Origin: Pocillopora damicornis
Lineage: Eukaryota
Length of the DNA stretch: 64,000 nt
Reading direction: 5' to 3'
Assembly (NCBI RefSeq): GCF_003704095.1
Contig: NW_020846737.1
Span: 124,001 to 188,000, forward strand
Position numbers: made by a program. Each line of letters opens with the position of its first letter. Within the stretch, counting starts at the first letter, position 1. Of this stretch, positions 6,001 to 21,000 are shown piece after piece.

Positions 6001-9000
6001 CGGTTTGGACGTATAAAGCTTAAAGAACAAACTTTTAATAAATTTAGCCTAATGTACGGCGAAACTTTGAAAGATTAGAGTTTCGAATCCTCACAGAAGG
6101 AGTCATATTTCTAAGTCGTATTACGCTTGCGACGAATGTTTTTACTCTTTTCTTTATAACTGTGGATTATTTAAACGTCTTCGTGCATAGTTCAGTTAAG
6201 TAGTTCCTCTGTTACCGAGCACGGCACAGCGGTAATTTATCGGACTGACAATCTATTTTCGTGAAAATTAAATCAATAGAAACGATCCATGAGTCGATAA
6301 AATCATGAGTAAAAAAGCGAAAAAAAACGATTTTCGAGAAAGCTGTGTTAACGCGGCCCACTCCTATGGGATAAATCGTAGATGATCAGTTGAAGAGGAA
6401 AAAACTAGCTAAGGATAGTTAGAAATGAAATTCATTTTTTAACAAAGTTTCAAATCTATCCTTTAGTGATAAAGTTAACATGGGATTTCTTTAAACTTTT
6501 TTAATCATGGGGAAAATTTACAGTATTCTTGATCAATGTAATAAACCAAGTGCTTCGAGATACGTAATAATAAAACGCGTTTAATGATTGCGCAACGCGC
6601 AAAGTTGGCTTGTTTCATGAATCAGTGATGATGTCAATTTTCTCGACGATTAGTTCAAAAAGAAACCTCCCTTTTATCTTAATTGTTGTAGCATTGCTAC
6701 AGTGTCGAAAATTTAGCATGAGCCAAACAAGGCACTTAACAAAAACGTATATTTCTCTAAAAGAACCTATTGAAACTTTCATGTCAATTCAGTTACTTTC
6801 ACCTGAGAAATGAGGCGCTGTGAATATTTAAATTTACAAAAATTTGTTTAACTGAGGAACAACCGTTGAATTACATTTTCTTTGATAAACTACCTGAAAA
6901 GTTGTGAAATTACCCCCTGAGGAATTGTAATATTTTTGTTGGTAAAAATTTGTTTTAAAAAGCTGTTTTTTTTTTTCAAATATAGTAGTCTAAAAGTTTC
7001 AGCAACACTTTGGAGAAACATGGCCTCTTCTCTCAACATAATGTTCTGATTCTTTCTATGGGTTCTCGTCAAATTATTTTTATGGTACAAAGGAACTCTT
7101 CCGTAAAATTCCGTACGTTTACATAAGATACACTCCAGTGTTTAAAAGATTAATATGTCCGCGGGCTATTTTGGTCTATGAAAAGGATGCAACATTAATA
7201 AGCCACATTAGATGTTAATAAAAAGACAAACAAAATGTCTTAAAAAGCTTGTAGCTTTGGGGAAATATTAATTTTTTGACAAAGCATGTCTTCATAAAGG
7301 CTAAATTAAAATTCTACTTACCCGTAAAAAAAATATTATCAAGAATAAGTAACAGTTACAAATAGTTTAAGTTTATGTCTTGCTGGTAGCTTTTCAACTG
7401 AATTTTCTATTTCGGGGAAATCCACTTCTTGGATGTTAATCGAAGAATTTTTCTAAAACTTTTGGCTTGCAAAACTTTCCTTTTTCTATTCTTCTCTACG
7501 ATTAGTCTAAATGATTAGCGATCTATAAACTTCGCACAAATTTTCGGTTAACATTTATTCAGTCCAACACTGCCTCATTTTCCGCGTTTTTGGTAGCCTA
7601 CGTGCAGCTGCATTAGCGGCGAAACCCGCAAGATTCGAGCATGCGAGAGGTCTGTTAGGGGTCTGGCACGAAAACCAGATCGTGCCAAACCCCTCGCAGA
7701 ACTCTCGTACACTCATATCACGGGTGCGCGGTGCCAATTGGAGCATGCTCGTCAGCTACGTTCGTTGTCGATGAATGCCTAAATTCGTGATGAGTTCTTT
7801 GATGTCGTGACAACTCGATTTAAGTCTGTCTGTATGCCAGAGGCATATAACCTAGAAGCTTATATGCTTCTGGTTAAACAGAATAACCGAAATAGCTCTA
7901 TTGAAAGGTTATAACATATTAATTTGACGGATTTTTCTTGGCAAGTCTAAATTACACATCCATTAAAATTTCAATCCAAATCCTTCAAATCCTTCCTCCT
8001 GCTAAGGATTAATTCTTACACAAAGCCACTATCATTTCATCGACGGATCGATTGATTCCTTTGCTCTAATAAAACCTGTCGTATATCTTTTACAGTGGTC
8101 AGTTTTCTCAAGGTCAAGGTGCGATCAGAAGCGCGTGATTTGGCGTCCATTTTGGTTGACAATAGAAACTACGCACCTCAGTCTGAAGGATACAATGTGG
8201 TAGTTCTTGATCCGCTATCAGGTACATTCTTCTAATTCACAAGACGAGCGATGTCCTTTAGTTTGATAAAACAGTTGCACCAAAGTGATTCATTGCTCAA
8301 TGTTACCCTCCATGCACCATTCCGTTTTAGTCATTCCTTATAATTTTAGCTGTATAGGTTGGTTTCCGTTTTTTTCCTCATCATATCTGTGCTCATTGCT
8401 CAAGTAAATCAAAAAGAAAAAGGATATACCTGAAAGATCATAGATTTTTTTTACTAAACGCAGTCGTTTGGCTGATATGGGAAAGCTCTCCGAATGAGGG
8501 GAATTGGATAAGACAGAGGGTTTATAGACACATGAAGATTATACCGGGATGCTCACCTTTTCACATATTCTACCTTTGACTTACGCTTTGGTCAGAATTT
8601 TCAAGTGCAAGCGTTTTGTTTTTCCCTATCCAGGTCGTTTCCTCACCTCAGCTGCGTTTGATTGCGCAACGCACCAAGCTGAGTGCGACAAGCTAGGTGT
8701 GTTCCTGAAAGGCTTGCCTCAGGATGTTGTTGTGTTGCTGGCTGCACAAGGCCCCGCTGTTGTCACTGGTCACGTGCTTCCAACGAAGGAATTGAAAAAA
8801 GTAGGCGCCAATCATACTGAAAATGTTTCTGCGCAAACTCGCCACGCAGTCATTGGATATAAAGGACAGATGAAGGGAGTGACGTGGATAAAGGAGATCT
8901 TGAGCGACAAAGGATCGGCCGAAGTATCATCAAGTATTCCAATCCGTTTTTCATACAAACCAAAAGGTAAAGGAATGACTGCCTTTTTTTTTTTTTTTTT

Positions 9001-18000: not shown

Positions 18001-21000
18001 ATCTCATTTGATAGCGTTAGGGCCCTAGCAGGCTGCAGTACATGAATAAATGAGGAAGTCTTTGTTAAATAACTGTCTACCTTGCTAGGAAGCCTCGGCC
18101 ACGAAGAAAAAGCCCACCACTGTAGTATACCCGCGCTTACTACGATTAAAACTAGGCGCCTAAGGAGTCCGTAAGTTATTCACGCAAAAAATTTATTATA
18201 ACCAACAGGAAATTCTGATCCGGTGGTTTACATGTATCTTATTCAACTCCTTCTGAAGGGACGATGAAATAGATAGATAGAGAGACATCTTTATTTAAAA
18301 ATAACCGATGGTGAAACTCAGGGTAGTCCTGTCAGAAGCCTAACGGTAGAGTTTCCTGCCATCACTAGGAGCCCTGAGTTTAAATATATTCTGAATACCA
18401 ATTCATAAAAAGTATCTATAAAAACATTTACAATATACGTGATCTAGTGATAGATGCAACTTTTTTGATACAATTGAAGATGTCTTTTATGTCAGAATTG
18501 TCACGGTAAGAATGCCACAGGGTGTTTTGTTTCAGCGCTGATTCGGTAACAGTTTATCTTAATTCCTTATCACAGTTCCTTGGAATTACTTGGGTTGCTA
18601 TGAAGACAGTACGATTTTACCAAGGTTCGTTTTCAATCCAGGTGATTACCGAGTTAGCAGAATGACTCCTGGTCTTTGCATGCACTTGTGCGGCAATTTC
18701 ATTTTCAGTTATGCAGGATTGAGGGATGACAACATATGTCTGTGTTCCAATTCTACGGCAAACGTGACAGAACGTCCTCGAGATCTGTGCCTATCTGCGT
18801 GCCTTGGTGCTGGAAATCTTAAGTGCGGTGGAGGATCTTACCTATCCGTTTACAAGTCAGTTCAAGTGCAACCTCTAACCTTAAACCTATCAGCTGATTC
18901 TTCCGCTGTGGCTCTCACCGCGTTCAACTTAAAAATAAAAATATTACCTTCTCTCTCAAAGAACCAAATTGTTGAGTCTTACGTACTATTTGTGGGGGAC
19001 GGTGTGGACTTTTTGAATTATAATGAGACGAAGTCTGAAGCTACGCTTATATTCAGTGACCCGGGAAACTACACCATTAAGGGGAGAGCGATTGTAAAAC
19101 ATACAAAAACTGGCCATCGGTCAGCGGTGGAGTCTTTCATGATAACACCAGCGGTGTCTAATGTTACGGATATCGCGTTCATCTGTCCTACGGCGTATCC
19201 TGTGAATTTTACGTTCAGCTGCTCTCTACAATTTAGTCAAGGAACAAACGTGAACGCTACTATAGAGTTTGAAGGAGGATATTACATTTCTGGTTTTGTT
19301 CCGGGTAAGTTTTGCTACACTGATAATCTAGTGAATTTGTCGGACTGTTTGGAGACTACATTCATATGTACACTACATTCCACTTAATCAGTCAGTCAGN
19401 NNNNNNNNNNNNNNNNNNNNNNNNNNNNNNNNNNNNNNNNNNNNNNNNNNNNNNNNNNNNNNNNNNNNNNNNNNNNNNNNNNNNNNNNNNNNNTCAGTCA
19501 GTTGGTCAGTCAGTTAGTCAGTCCGTCAAATGAATAGAGGGGGTTCGTTTCTGAGGAAACTGTGGTACTGCGTCAGTGGGGACCGAGTGTAACATGACAA
19601 TTTAGTTTTATCAGTTCAACTGAGTTGATAATGCACACTGACCACCATAAAACTAACGTTTAGATTGTTAGCCATTCGTCAGAGCCGTCAGTCAGTCGGA
19701 CAGTTAATCAGGCAGATAGGCAGGCACTCACTCTATTGAGCAGGAGGTAAACAGCAAAGAATCAGGTATTCAGTCAGTAGGATAGAAAAACAGACTGTCA
19801 TTCGGGCAGTCGGTCGTGCATGCTGGCAAGTAGACCGGCAGTGGACAGTGATTTTTTTTTTTAGCGCAAGCAATATTTTTTTATGTATAGATGCCATGGT
19901 CATGACTGCGGGCATACCAGTTTCTGACCCAGGGGGCCAGGTTACTTCTGACGGACTGTACCTATTACCTACAATGGACGTCACAAACAAAGGAAAAGTT
20001 GTGGCTTTTGAAATGGATGTCGATCGAGGAGGCTTCCTAGAAATCAAGGTACCTATAAGTAGAAGTTTTTTCGCCTGAATATTCTAATTCTGTGTTTGAA
20101 GAAAAAGGAATCCCTGCAAAAATGTCTTCCGAAATCATTTCTTTTAAATTTTTGTTTTTATACGTTTTTAAATTTATTTTCTTCATTCAAAAGTATCACA
20201 AAGTTGCCACTGTACAATTGAAAGAATTAAGTATTAATGATGCAACAAAACTGGCCTTTGTCTTCACCTCCCCACCCCTCCCCTCTTCAGCTGTACCAAT
20301 TCTTGACTAAAACCAGTTCTGAGTTTTTGTTCTTTCTGAGTTTTATTCTGGGTCGTAGAGCTGTGTATCTCTGGGTATCTGTATTCTCATGTTTAATTTT
20401 GCCTGGATTTAACACTACGTGTCAATGACACGAAGTACAAAATTTTAAACCTTTGTAACTTGGCTTTACAGAACATATCATATTTGGATTTTAAAATTGC
20501 ATTAAATTGTTGCCAACACGTAAAGCCAATTTTTACAGTCCAGAACCTAGAATTGCTTGAATACTCAAAAGTGTTGTTTCTGTGAGCGTTTTCCATGGAT
20601 TCGCGGAATAAAGACAACAGCTCTATTTTTAACTTGTGTGCCCTAGGTTTATCGCCCGAAGTGTTTAGATTCCAAGCAGCGTTACTGTCGAGTACAAAGG
20701 CTGTGTGATTCCTCTGTTGGTTGCTGGGATGGTAATAAAACATTTAGCTTTGCAGGAACACAGTGCGTCAAGGAAGATGGGGCATTCAGCGAAAACAAAA
20801 CGACGTCCCAAGCAAACTTTGATTACGAAAATATCTCAAATTGTACGATTCAGACAACCAGCGGCCATAAGGTTATTTTAGTCGAGAGTTGTACTCAGCA
20901 ACTTGAGGTTGAAGAAGGCGATGTCATTGCTGTGCAATTTCCTTCTTCTAAGCCAGGTGCGGCAATTAAAACAAGTTTGTCAAGTATTTCTCTTTTTTAT

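What the first reader, a model, noticed from the sequence alone, without database searches (positions are those of the whole stretch)
8096..19304. Polycystin-1 family receptor with an unusual duplicated lectin-like ectodomain cassette
Seen: [ILEI/GG-like, discoidin-like, FAMeT-like] x2, then a LamG/ConA-like exon and WSC, all spliced in phase into the PKD-REJ-GPS-PLAT-11TM core. Knowledge: vertebrate PC1 has LRR, WSC and C-type lectin domains; sea-urchin REJ proteins use C-type and SUEL lectins; GG/ILEI domains (FAM3, POMGNT1 stem, TMEM2/CEMIP) and discoidin, ConA and WSC folds are associated with carbohydrate binding. I do not know this combination from any characterised polycystin. Inference: a multivalent glycan-sensing channel subunit, for example in gamete, symbiont, prey or settlement-cue recognition.
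[Added by the scan's program, not by the reader: the finding's places include an assembly gap (unread letters, written N; its length is only estimated) at 14176 to 14265. Whether the letters on both sides are continuous or in frame is not known: test that first.]
Basis: partly seen in the sequence, partly recalled or inferred. Interest (0 to 1): 0.7.

Follow-up and report, generated by a model that had tools for sequence, protein, structure and literature searches.

The report
Coral-type polycystin-1 gene, duplicated lectin-like head
A polycystin-1-type membrane receptor/channel gene, most like those of corals, appears to carry at its outer end two diverged copies of a three-domain sugar-binding-like module not reported for this family, but no transcript yet shows that these exons are spliced onto the channel.

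Summary
On the + strand, 8096-19304 contains 14 exons with AG/GT borders. Twelve of them form two tandem six-exon units, followed by a LamG-like exon and a WSC+PKD exon. The two units match only in their exons: 68-75% nucleotide identity, 58.6% amino-acid identity, dN/dS about 0.3. This is an old tandem duplication under purifying selection, not an assembly or haplotype duplicate.

Both assembly gaps lie in introns, and reading phase is compatible across each. A phase-consistent exon chain runs on to the stop at 34878, at least 3,911 codons. It covers PKD repeats, REJ, a GPS motif (HL/T), PLAT, 11 hydrophobic segments, the polycystin/TOP domain and a full PKD_channel domain. The best named relative is an Acropora cervicornis PKD1L2-like partial protein.

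Domain calls, made exon by exon:
- ILEI and WSC pass Pfam's curated cut-offs.
- LamG passes only in 58-96%-identical ORFs from other records.
- FAMeT-like falls just below the cut-off in both copies.
- Discoidin-like rests on weak hits and a language-model lead.

No annotated or spliced protein in the 1.84-billion-representative library carries this ILEI exon. No start codon or signal peptide was established, and linkage into one transcript is inferred. I rate it a new variant of a known family, of moderate interest.

The parts
8096..8221 (+). Unit 1 exon a: first part of the ILEI-like module (phase 1 in, phase 1 out)
   Evidence: AG/GT borders. 66% aa identity to U2a. No Pfam hit on its own.
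8634..8966 (+). Unit 1 exon b: ILEI core
   Evidence: PF15711 ILEI 29.5 bits, cut-off 27, profile 13-90/90. 62% identity to U2b.
10115..10410 (+). Unit 1 exon c: discoidin-like module, first two thirds
   Evidence: F5_F8_type_C E 0.028 and DUF7402 E 0.006, both below cut-off. ESM Atlas nearest clusters are F5/8 type C at 0.96.
10578..10731 (+). Unit 1 exon d: discoidin-like module, last third
   Evidence: Borders. 51% identity to U2d, dN/dS 0.14. No meaningful Pfam hit alone (one chance-level match, RimM, E 0.09).
11785..12095 (+). Unit 1 exon e: FAMeT-like (PF12248) module, first three quarters
   Evidence: Methyltransf_FA 22.0 bits, E 1.4e-4, cut-off 24.2, profile 18-103/140.
12357..12456 (+). 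Unit 1 exon f: end of the FAMeT-like module
   Evidence: Found through the sixth blastn match. Frame and borders. 61% identity to U2f.
13016..13171 (+). Unit 2 exon a
   Evidence: Acceptor with a 16/20 pyrimidine tract, donor cag|GTTGGT, phase 1 to 1.
13644..13976 (+). Unit 2 exon b: ILEI core
   Evidence: PF15711 39.2 bits, E 1e-9.
14176..14265 (.). Assembly gap (90 N) inside intron U2b-U2c
   Evidence: Phases match across it. Not filled.
14390..14673 (+). Unit 2 exon c: discoidin-like, first part
   Evidence: F5_F8_type_C E 0.096, profile 4-72/127. NADase_discoid E 0.034. 62% identity to U1c.
15025..15178 (+). Unit 2 exon d
15700..16013 (+). Unit 2 exon e: FAMeT-like, first part
   Evidence: Methyltransf_FA 20.1 bits, E 5.5e-4, profile 20-102/140.
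16693..16792 (+). Unit 2 exon f
17284..17937 (+). LamG/ConA-like exon (whole module in one exon, phase 1 to 1)
   Evidence: Borders. Own Pfam scan is negative. Related ORFs P0156 and P0158 pass Laminin_G_3. ESM Atlas gives Laminin_G_3 at 0.98.
18576..19304 (+). WSC domain plus an Ig/PKD-like stretch
   Evidence: WSC 50.9 bits, E 1.8e-13. Borders.
19400..19493 (.). Assembly gap (94 N) in the intron after the WSC exon, within GTCA-type simple repeat
   Evidence: Not filled.
19891..20048 (+). Exon of no known family, in phase with the WSC exon and with the next exon
   Evidence: No Pfam or NCBIfam hit.
20647..22349 (+). Large exon: about 200 residues of no known family, then PKD repeats
   Evidence: PKD 87.1 bits in 3 stretches. 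Donor cag|GTGAGT.
23153..24499 (+). Two exons (23153-23382, 24132-24499) of the REJ module
   Evidence: REJ 79.1 bits. Phases. tblastn to Hydra proteins.
25357..28837 (+). Five phase-0 exons (25357-25533, 26181-26318, 27038-27199, 27823-28083, 28175-28837) between REJ and GPS
   Evidence: Splice and phase chain. No Pfam hit exon by exon.
29373..29597 (+). GPS motif (CLASHL/TTF, starting at 29406) and first hydrophobic segment
   Evidence: tblastn to Amphiura polycystin-1-like.
29972..31710 (+). PLAT (split over 29972-30155 and 30491-31710) and hydrophobic segments 2-6
   Evidence: PLAT 27.3 and 32.0 bits. Segments. 72% identity to P0135.
31865..34878 (+). Polycystin/TOP domain (31865-32000 or 32009, 32298-32543), then last exon 33068-34878 with segments 7-11, pore region, acidic tail and stop
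   Evidence: Polycystin_dom 28.4, 32.9 and 75.2 bits; PKD_channel 179.2; Ion_trans 52.5..

Best explanation
One large gene of the polycystin-1 (PKD1/REJ) family, from an anthozoan-like genome, with at least 3,911 codons from 8096 to 34878.

Its outer end was extended by exon shuffling. A module of three domains was duplicated in tandem long ago, and both copies are kept by selection. The three domains are ILEI/FAM3-like, discoidin-like and FAMeT-like (PF12248); each is a phase 1-1 unit of about 140-160 residues. They are followed by LamG-like and WSC domains, then the family's usual PKD repeats, REJ, GPS, PLAT, 11 membrane segments and channel domain.

Inferred mechanism, by analogy with the family and not tested here:
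- The protein is cut at the GPS site (HL/T) into an outer fragment and a membrane fragment that stay attached.
- The outer fragment presents a row of carbohydrate- or matrix-binding folds, so it binds extracellular glycans or matrix multivalently.
- The membrane fragment, with its well-preserved channel domain, signals or gates together with PKD2-type subunits.

Shown here: the exons, their phases, the duplication, selection on both copies, and the core domains. Inferred: splicing into one transcript, secretion, ligand type, cleavage and channel partnership.
For: - Exon borders and phase chain from 8096 to the stop at 34878. One upstream base plus 11,732 exon bases gives 3,911 codons.
- Each domain is a phase 1-1 unit. 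Unit 1: 459, 450 and 411 nt. Unit 2: 489, 438 and 414 nt (U2a).
- Six exon-only blastn matches between the units. 58.6% aa identity, dN 0.30, dS 0.97, per-exon dN/dS 0.14-0.44.
- ILEI above cut-off twice and FAMeT-like near cut-off twice. WSC, PKD, REJ and PLAT. PKD_channel and Polycystin_dom.
- LamG supported through related ORFs and pLM leads.
- GPS motif and 11 hydrophobic segments.
- The core is colinear with Acropora, Amphiura and Hydra PKD1-like proteins.
- Neither the LamG nor the WSC exon has a start codon of its own; both need an upstream phase-1 exon. A scan of 8096-20646 found no signal-peptide-like first exon downstream of 15584.
- Related ILEI-exon ORFs (10 of the 12 best hits) and 5 related LamG-exon ORFs occur in other records, so the exons are conserved beyond this genome.
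- Passages of PMC4890752 and PMC8846589 describe cnidarian PKD1-like proteins with WSC, PKD, REJ, GPS and PLAT. In the sea anemone, two gene models proved to be one gene.
Against: - No transcript evidence of any kind.
- In the exhaustive search with the ILEI exon profile, the 10 short hits whose sequences I read are unspliced genomic ORF pieces that run on into intron. No spliced or annotated protein of any length carried the exon at high score.
- 0 of 14 longer hits that I scanned had PKD, REJ or PLAT.
- 0 of 21 PKD1-like relatives of 1057-3015 aa list ILEI, FAMeT, discoidin or LamG in their precomputed Pfam domains.
- The published coral and sea-anemone PKD1-like proteins are described without these domains (passages of PMC4890752, PMC8846589).
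- Start codon and signal peptide were not established. The only candidate, 6628-6746, has a weak donor in phase 2 and would need a further unidentified exon.
- Discoidin-like and FAMeT-like calls are below curated cut-offs.
- Because every unit is phase 1-1, the cassette exons could be skipped in some or all transcripts.
Confidence: 0.6

Rival explanations
1. Two genes. Exons 8096-16792 (perhaps to 17937) encode a separate secreted multi-lectin-like protein. The polycystin-1-like gene starts downstream with a first exon that I did not recognise.
For: No annotated or spliced protein joins the ILEI exon to PKD/REJ domains. Described cnidarian PKD1-like proteins begin with WSC and PKD (passages of PMC4890752, PMC8846589). 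A weak Met-plus-hydrophobic ORF with a phase-1 donor lies at 15515-15584.
Against: The LamG and WSC exons have no start codon and begin in phase 1. The upstream exons all end in phase 1, with no in-frame stop at the junction codons. No candidate first exon was found between 15585 and 20646. I noticed no separate terminal exon for an upstream gene among the listed + strand frames, but made no dedicated search for one. Gene models of such genes are known to be split wrongly (PMC8846589 passage).
Confidence: 0.2
2. One gene, but the outer fragment's main role is structural rather than sensory. After GPS cleavage it would be shed and built into the extracellular or skeletal organic matrix, or would anchor cells to it, as proposed for the Acropora digitifera REJ domain-containing skeletal matrix protein.
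For: A passage of PMC4890752 reports a WSC-PKD-REJ-GPS-PLAT protein in the coral skeletal proteome, with shedding at the GPS site proposed. The GPS motif is present here. The best named relative is from Acropora. LamG, discoidin and WSC folds are common in matrix proteins (general knowledge).
Against: The channel domain is fully preserved (PKD_channel 179 bits over the whole profile), which argues for a signalling role as well. Orthology to the skeletal protein was not tested. The organism is not known to calcify.
Confidence: 0.25
3. The cassette exons are optional. Because each domain and each unit is phase 1-1, most transcripts skip one or both units, and the two-cassette form is rare or never made.
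For: All module lengths are multiples of three with the same phase. No spliced protein with the ILEI exon is in the library.
Against: Both copies are under purifying selection (dN/dS about 0.3) and related exons are kept in other records, so they are used in some product. Phase symmetry is normal for shuffled ectodomain exons and does not itself show skipping.
Confidence: 0.2
4. The duplication or the linkage is an assembly artefact: haplotypes placed in tandem, or a wrong join at a gap.
For: Two N gaps interrupt the region. The true gap lengths are unknown.
Against: The units are only 68-75% identical in exons and unalignable in introns, far too diverged for haplotypes. Separate ORF clusters close to U1b (P0001) and to U2b (P0002) exist in other records. 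Order, orientation and phase across gap 1 repeat unit 1 exactly.
Confidence: 0.03

Closest known systems
Cnidarian PKD1-like proteins: Nematostella vectensis polycystin 1-like (GenBank OK338071, PMC8846589) and the Acropora digitifera REJ domain-containing skeletal matrix protein (aug_v2a.02830, PMC4890752). By sequence, 'Polycystic kidney disease protein 1-like 2, partial [Acropora cervicornis]' (P0135).
   Same: WSC, PKD repeats, REJ, GPS, PLAT, TOP and 11 membrane segments. No LRR, C-type lectin or LDL-A was found here either. P0135 is 59% identical over the last exon and 72% over the PLAT and membrane-segment exon.
   Different: The passages I read describe those proteins without ILEI, discoidin-like, FAMeT-like or LamG modules. 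Here about 1,100 residues of such modules precede WSC. Orthology to either described protein was not tested.
Sea-urchin REJ proteins and vertebrate PKD1, PKD1L2 and PKD1L3
   Same: The same family core, and the same habit of carrying lectin-type modules at the outer end: C-type lectin, SUEL/Gal_Lectin, WSC, EGF (PMC1934368 passages; Pfam lists of fish PKD1L2).
   Different: The kinds of module differ, and they come as a tandemly duplicated three-domain unit. None of the 21 relatives lists these families.
ILEI/FAM3 domain proteins (PF15711)
   Same: Both copies pass the Pfam cut-off. The nearest longer relatives are proteins with 2-6 ILEI repeats.
   Different: Those relatives have no PKD, REJ or PLAT (0 of 14 scanned). 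Four of the 14 are C25 peptidase-type proteins that also carry CARDB domains.
PF12248 (Methyltransf_FA) as an extracellular module
   Same: The same profile region is matched in both copies. The domain is reported in the secreted thioester protein CPAMD8 (PMC9363628 passage) and in arthropod FAMeT with DUF3421 (PMC10015273 passages).

Membership tests
Polycystin-1 (PKD1/REJ) family | REJ module | tested here: met
   PF02010 79.1 bits, cut-off 25, on exon ORF 24092-24520.
Polycystin-1 (PKD1/REJ) family | GPS cleavage motif just before the first membrane segment | tested here: inconclusive
   Motif CLASHL/TTF starts at 29406, followed by a hydrophobic segment at 29493-29549. No Pfam GPS hit on the exon alone. 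Cleavage is not testable here.
Polycystin-1 (PKD1/REJ) family | PLAT domain after the first membrane segment | tested here: met
   PF01477 27.3 and 32.0 bits on the two exons that split it, cut-off 23.
Polycystin-1 (PKD1/REJ) family | 11 membrane segments, the last six channel-like, with the polycystin/TOP domain | tested here: met
   1+5+5 hydrophobic segments by a Kyte-Doolittle scan; a twelfth window, inside the PLAT exon, was set aside. PKD_channel 179.2, Polycystin_dom 75.2, 32.9 and 28.4, Ion_trans 52.5 bits.
Polycystin-1 (PKD1/REJ) family | PKD (Ig-like) repeats in the ectodomain | tested here: met
   PF00801 87.1 bits in 3 stretches.
Polycystin-1 (PKD1/REJ) family | Signal peptide and a single transcript covering the whole | tested here: inconclusive
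   Only a weak candidate at 6628-6746. No transcript data are available with these tools.
ILEI / FAM3 (PF15711) | Score above Pfam's gathering cut-off | tested here: met
   29.5 and 39.2 bits against 27.
WSC (PF01822) | Score above Pfam's gathering cut-off | tested here: met
   50.9 bits against 27.8, whole profile 1-82.
Laminin_G_3 / ConA-like (PF13385) | Score above Pfam's gathering cut-off | tested here: inconclusive
   The window's exon gives no hit. P0156 (96% identical over the aligned part) scores 32.2, P0158 29.6 and P0159 26.1, against 27.6. The window's exon lacks a few residues that P0156 and P0157 have. ESM Atlas lead 0.98.
Methyltransf_FA (PF12248) | Score above Pfam's gathering cut-off | tested here: not met
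   22.0 and 20.1 bits against 24.2, on exon e alone, which holds about three quarters of the module. The joined module was not scanned.
F5/8 type C (discoidin, PF00754) | Score above Pfam's gathering cut-off | tested here: not met
   15.0 and 13.2 bits against 28.2, at the same profile span 3-73. ESM Atlas lead 0.96, with all ten best hits in the family. The joined module was not scanned.

The most novel reading that the evidence does not exclude
An anthozoan-lineage polycystin-1 receptor/channel whose shed outer fragment is a purpose-built array of eight lectin-like modules: two ILEI, two discoidin-like, two FAMeT-like, one LamG and one WSC. On this reading it is conserved across several genomes yet absent from current gene annotations. 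It would couple recognition of a particular extracellular glycan (matrix, gamete coat, prey or symbiont surface) to a TRP-type channel. That would be a ligand-defined polycystin, something the family still lacks.
Probability: 0.2. Interest if true: 0.65.

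Novelty: new variant of a known kind. Interest (0 to 1): 0.38.

Why it matters
What polycystin-1-type proteins bind outside the cell remains largely unknown. For PKD1L2 and PKD1L3, the carbohydrate ligands of their lectin domains are unknown (PMC1934368 passage). 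A family member with a long, selected row of carbohydrate-binding-like folds would be a convenient case for finding a ligand, for example by glycan arrays on single modules.

It also shows how the family's outer end is rebuilt by exon shuffling in an early-branching animal lineage. On the practical side, gene models of cnidarian PKD1-like genes may be cut short at the 5' end. A sea-anemone PKD1-like gene was likewise split into two models until RT-PCR joined them (PMC8846589).

Tried and rejected
- Word-index search with the U2b exon, 'longer' setting: nothing found, but only proteins of 194-2000 aa were searched, so it says little.
- PDB sequence searches with the LamG exon and with the ILEI, discoidin-like and FAMeT-like two-sequence profiles: no meaningful match. 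The designed beta-trefoil hits had 0 passing stretches.
- AlphaFold2 of the LamG exon with a 6-sequence alignment: mean pLDDT 41. Of FAMeT exon e with 2 sequences: pLDDT 46. Both models are all-beta but too poor to use.
- Foldseek of the LamG model against PDB: 0 matches at E<=0.001. Laminin LG, neurexin and pentraxin chains appear among non-significant rows at TM<=0.27, which I do not count as evidence.
- NCBIfam scan of eight exons: only chance-level rows besides NADase_discoid.
- Cluster look-up of 10 hits: no names, so no taxonomy from them.
- Tree of 19 ILEI-exon sequences: the window's two copies and 11 further rows form one clade (support 91/92), but its inner order is unresolved. The age of the duplication relative to other lineages stays open.
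- Signal-peptide scans upstream of 8096 gave no convincing first exon.
- Literature searches: 'polycystin' with ILEI, WSC and REJ; 'polycystin' with farnesoic acid, discoidin, FAM3 and coral; 'polycystin' with 'ILEI' (where the hits are 'ileitis'-type words). None found this architecture.

Left out by instruction: any search or fold of the joined (spliced) protein or of joined split domains.

- Metagenome contigs and viral contigs (closed), so the neighbourhood of the related exons in other genomes was not examined.
- Supplementary files (closed). S6 Fig of PMC4890752, which draws the coral and sea-anemone PKD1 domain structures, was not seen.
- Proteins longer than 3015 aa by the word-index search.

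Full report
**Gap test (done first, as asked)**

The window has three N runs: 14176-14265, 19400-19493 and 43615-43917. The first lies in the intron between exon U2b (ends 13976, donor GTAAAA) and exon U2c (starts 14390, after a CTCAG acceptor).
- U2b leaves one base of a codon and U2c brings two. The same junction in unit 1 has the same split codon, G|AT.
- U2b aligns with U1b over 108 of its 110 residues and U2c with U1c over all 94 of its residues. No coding sequence is visibly missing at the gap.
- The order and orientation of exons on the two sides repeat those of unit 1. A wrong scaffold join would have to reproduce this by accident.
- An extra exon inside the unread stretch cannot be excluded.

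The second gap lies in the next intron, inside GTCA-type simple repeat. The WSC exon's donor at 19304 (phase 1) fits the acceptor at 19891, which brings two leading bases.

**The observation**

The finding's limits are real splice sites: an acceptor before 8096 and the donor cgg|GTAAGT after 19304. Between them are 14 exons on the + strand.
- blastn of 7500-12900 against 12901-17200 gives six matches at 68.5-75% identity, all on exons and none in introns.
- The sixth match revealed a short exon in each unit, 12357-12456 and 16693-16792, that completes the third domain.
- Each unit therefore has six exons: 1320 and 1341 nt, or 440 and 447 codons.
- Each of the three domains within a unit is itself a phase 1-1 block: 459/489, 450/438 and 411/414 nt.
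- The LamG-like exon (654 nt) and the WSC+PKD exon (729 nt) are phase 1-1 as well.
- All exons are open in the expected frame, and no junction codon can be a stop.
- The window holds two copies of the unit and no third.

**Age of the duplication and selection**

Counted exon by exon and summed, without joining, over 430 aligned codons: amino-acid identity 58.6%, dN 0.30, dS 0.97, per-exon dN/dS 0.14-0.44. The duplication is old and both copies are under purifying selection. That rules out haplotype or assembly duplication and makes a dead copy unlikely.

**Domain calls, exon by exon**

- **ILEI (PF15711).** It passes Pfam's cut-off in both copies, at 29.5 and 39.2 bits against 27.
- **WSC.** It passes at 50.9 bits.
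- **FAMeT-like (PF12248).** Exon e scores 22.0 and 20.1 bits against 24.2. Both copies match the same profile span, positions 18-103 and 20-102 of 140. The missing quarter lies on exon f.
- **Discoidin-like.**
  - Exon c gives only weak hits: F5_F8_type_C at E 0.028 and 0.096 on the same profile span, DUF7402 at 0.006 and NADase_discoid at 0.034.
  - The ESM Atlas features place it with F5/8 type C clusters, at 0.96 with all ten best hits in that family. This is a lead, not a test.
- **LamG.**
  - The window's own exon has no Pfam hit.
  - Related ORFs from other records do hit Laminin_G_3. P0156 (96% identical over the aligned part) scores 32.2 bits and P0158 (61%) scores 29.6, both above the cut-off of 27.6. 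P0159 scores 26.1.
  - The window's exon lacks a few residues that P0156 and P0157 have.
  - The Atlas lead is Laminin_G_3 at 0.98.
- **Structure predictions.** Models of the LamG exon and of FAMeT exon e were too poor to use, at pLDDT 41 and 46. The fold search gave nothing significant.

**The rest of the gene**

A phase-consistent chain continues through these exons:
- 19891-20048 and 20647-22349 (PKD repeats, 87 bits);
- 23153-23382 and 24132-24499 (REJ, 79 bits);
- five phase-0 exons up to 28837;
- 29373-29597 (motif CLASHL/TTF and the first hydrophobic segment);
- 29972-30155 and 30491-31710 (PLAT at 27 and 32 bits, five hydrophobic segments);
- 31865-32000 or 32009, and 32298-32543 (polycystin/TOP domain);
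- 33068-34878 (PKD_channel 179 bits over the whole profile, Ion_trans, five hydrophobic segments, acidic tail, stop).

These rest. One upstream base plus 11,732 exon bases gives 3,911 codons.

The core is colinear with PKD1-like proteins of Acropora cervicornis, Amphiura filiformis and Hydra vulgaris. The Acropora protein P0135 is 59% identical over the last exon and 72% over the PLAT and membrane-segment exon. That points to an anthozoan-like source. The organism itself is not known to me.

**Is the cassette part of this gene?**

For:
- Same strand and an unbroken phase chain.
- The LamG and WSC exons have no start codon and begin in phase 1, so the core needs upstream coding exons.
- A scan of 8096-20646 for Met-plus-hydrophobic ORFs ending in a usable donor found nothing downstream of 15584.

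Against, or open:
- There is no transcript evidence.
- The exhaustive profile search with the ILEI exon against 1.84 billion representatives gave 95 hits, 20 of them at E<=1e-10.
  - Ten of the 12 best are 94-160-residue unnamed ORFs that, where I read them, run on into intron sequence. They are therefore genomic, not spliced.
  - No long protein carried the exon at high score.
  - The 14 longer hits I scanned are multi-ILEI proteins, C25 peptidase-type proteins or, in one case, an Xlink/C-type-lectin protein. None has PKD, REJ or PLAT.
- None of the 21 PKD1-like relatives of 1057-3015 aa lists ILEI, PF12248, discoidin or LamG. Proteins as long as this one were outside that search's range.
- Upstream of 8096 I could not establish a start. 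The only signal-peptide-like ORF (6628-6746) has a weak phase-2 donor and would need another exon.

**Comparison with what is known**

- PMC1934368 (passages read): PKD1-family ectodomains carry C-type lectin, SUEL, EGF, WSC and PKD modules. The carbohydrate ligands of PKD1L2 and PKD1L3 are unknown.
- PMC8846589 (passages read): the Nematostella polycystin 1-like protein is 3,457 aa, hair-cell specific, and assembled from two gene models by RT-PCR. It has PKD, REJ, WSC, PLAT, TOP and 11 membrane segments, with no LRR, C-type lectin or LDL-A.
- PMC4890752 (passages read): an Acropora digitifera WSC-PKD-REJ-GPS-PLAT protein occurs in the skeletal proteome, and shedding at the GPS site is proposed. 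Its S6 figure of domain structures is a supplement that I could not see.
- PMC9363628 and PMC10015273 (passages read): PF12248 occurs in the secreted protein CPAMD8 and in arthropod FAMeT.
- Three searches found no paper that combines polycystin with ILEI, FAM3, discoidin or farnesoic-acid terms in a relevant way.

**Verdict**

The sequence observation is confirmed. The family assignment of the core is secure. The cassette is real, duplicated long ago and selected. Two of its three domain names are probable rather than shown, and linkage to the channel in one transcript is likely (I put it near 0.7) but inferred. The glycan-sensing reading follows from the kinds of fold and from the family's habits, not from any test.

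This is a new variant of a known family. Ectodomain shuffling of this kind is usual in the family, so the surprise for a specialist is moderate.

Noticed in passing
37499-64000, + strand (runs off the window; N gap 43615-43917): A second very large gene made of long repeated units rich in glycine runs (GGGSGGSIW-type motifs, each followed by a conserved stretch of about 250 residues). Five large ORF pieces (four repeat-unit pieces and an upstream piece) gave no Pfam hit. One small piece (41924-42085) matches the end of F5_F8_type_C at E 3.2e-5, below the cut-off.
   Followed up: partly
19891-21250, + strand: About 250 residues between the WSC/PKD exon and the first Pfam-recognised PKD repeat have no family match. 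This may be a further unrecognised ectodomain module.
   Followed up: partly
17284-17937: The window's LamG-like exon lacks a few residues that the 96-97%-identical ORFs P0156 and P0157 carry near the end of the domain. This indel probably explains why the window's exon gives no Laminin_G_3 hit while P0156 passes the cut-off.
   Followed up: partly
6628-6746, + strand: A Met-initiated ORF with a signal-peptide-like hydrophobic stretch. It is the only such candidate upstream of the cassette. Its donor is weak and in phase 2, so another small exon would be needed before 8096.
   Followed up: partly
1493-2067, + strand: Two coiled-coil-looking exon ORFs of an upstream gene that ends near 2067. 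They give a weak FAM167 hit (E 0.0032, below the cut-off).
   Followed up: no
19380-19399 and 19494-19530: GTCA-type simple repeat on both sides of the second assembly gap, a likely reason for the gap.
   Followed up: no
Proteins P0005, P0011, P0028, P0034, P0036, P0040 (not in the window): ILEI domains occur in unnamed proteins with 2-6 copies. One also has an acyltransferase_3 domain, and four of about 1,900 residues are C25 peptidase-type proteins with CARDB domains.
   Followed up: no
15515-15584, + strand (intron between U2d and U2e): A short Met-plus-hydrophobic ORF with a phase-1 donor. It is the only internal alternative first-exon candidate found, and may be chance.
   Followed up: no
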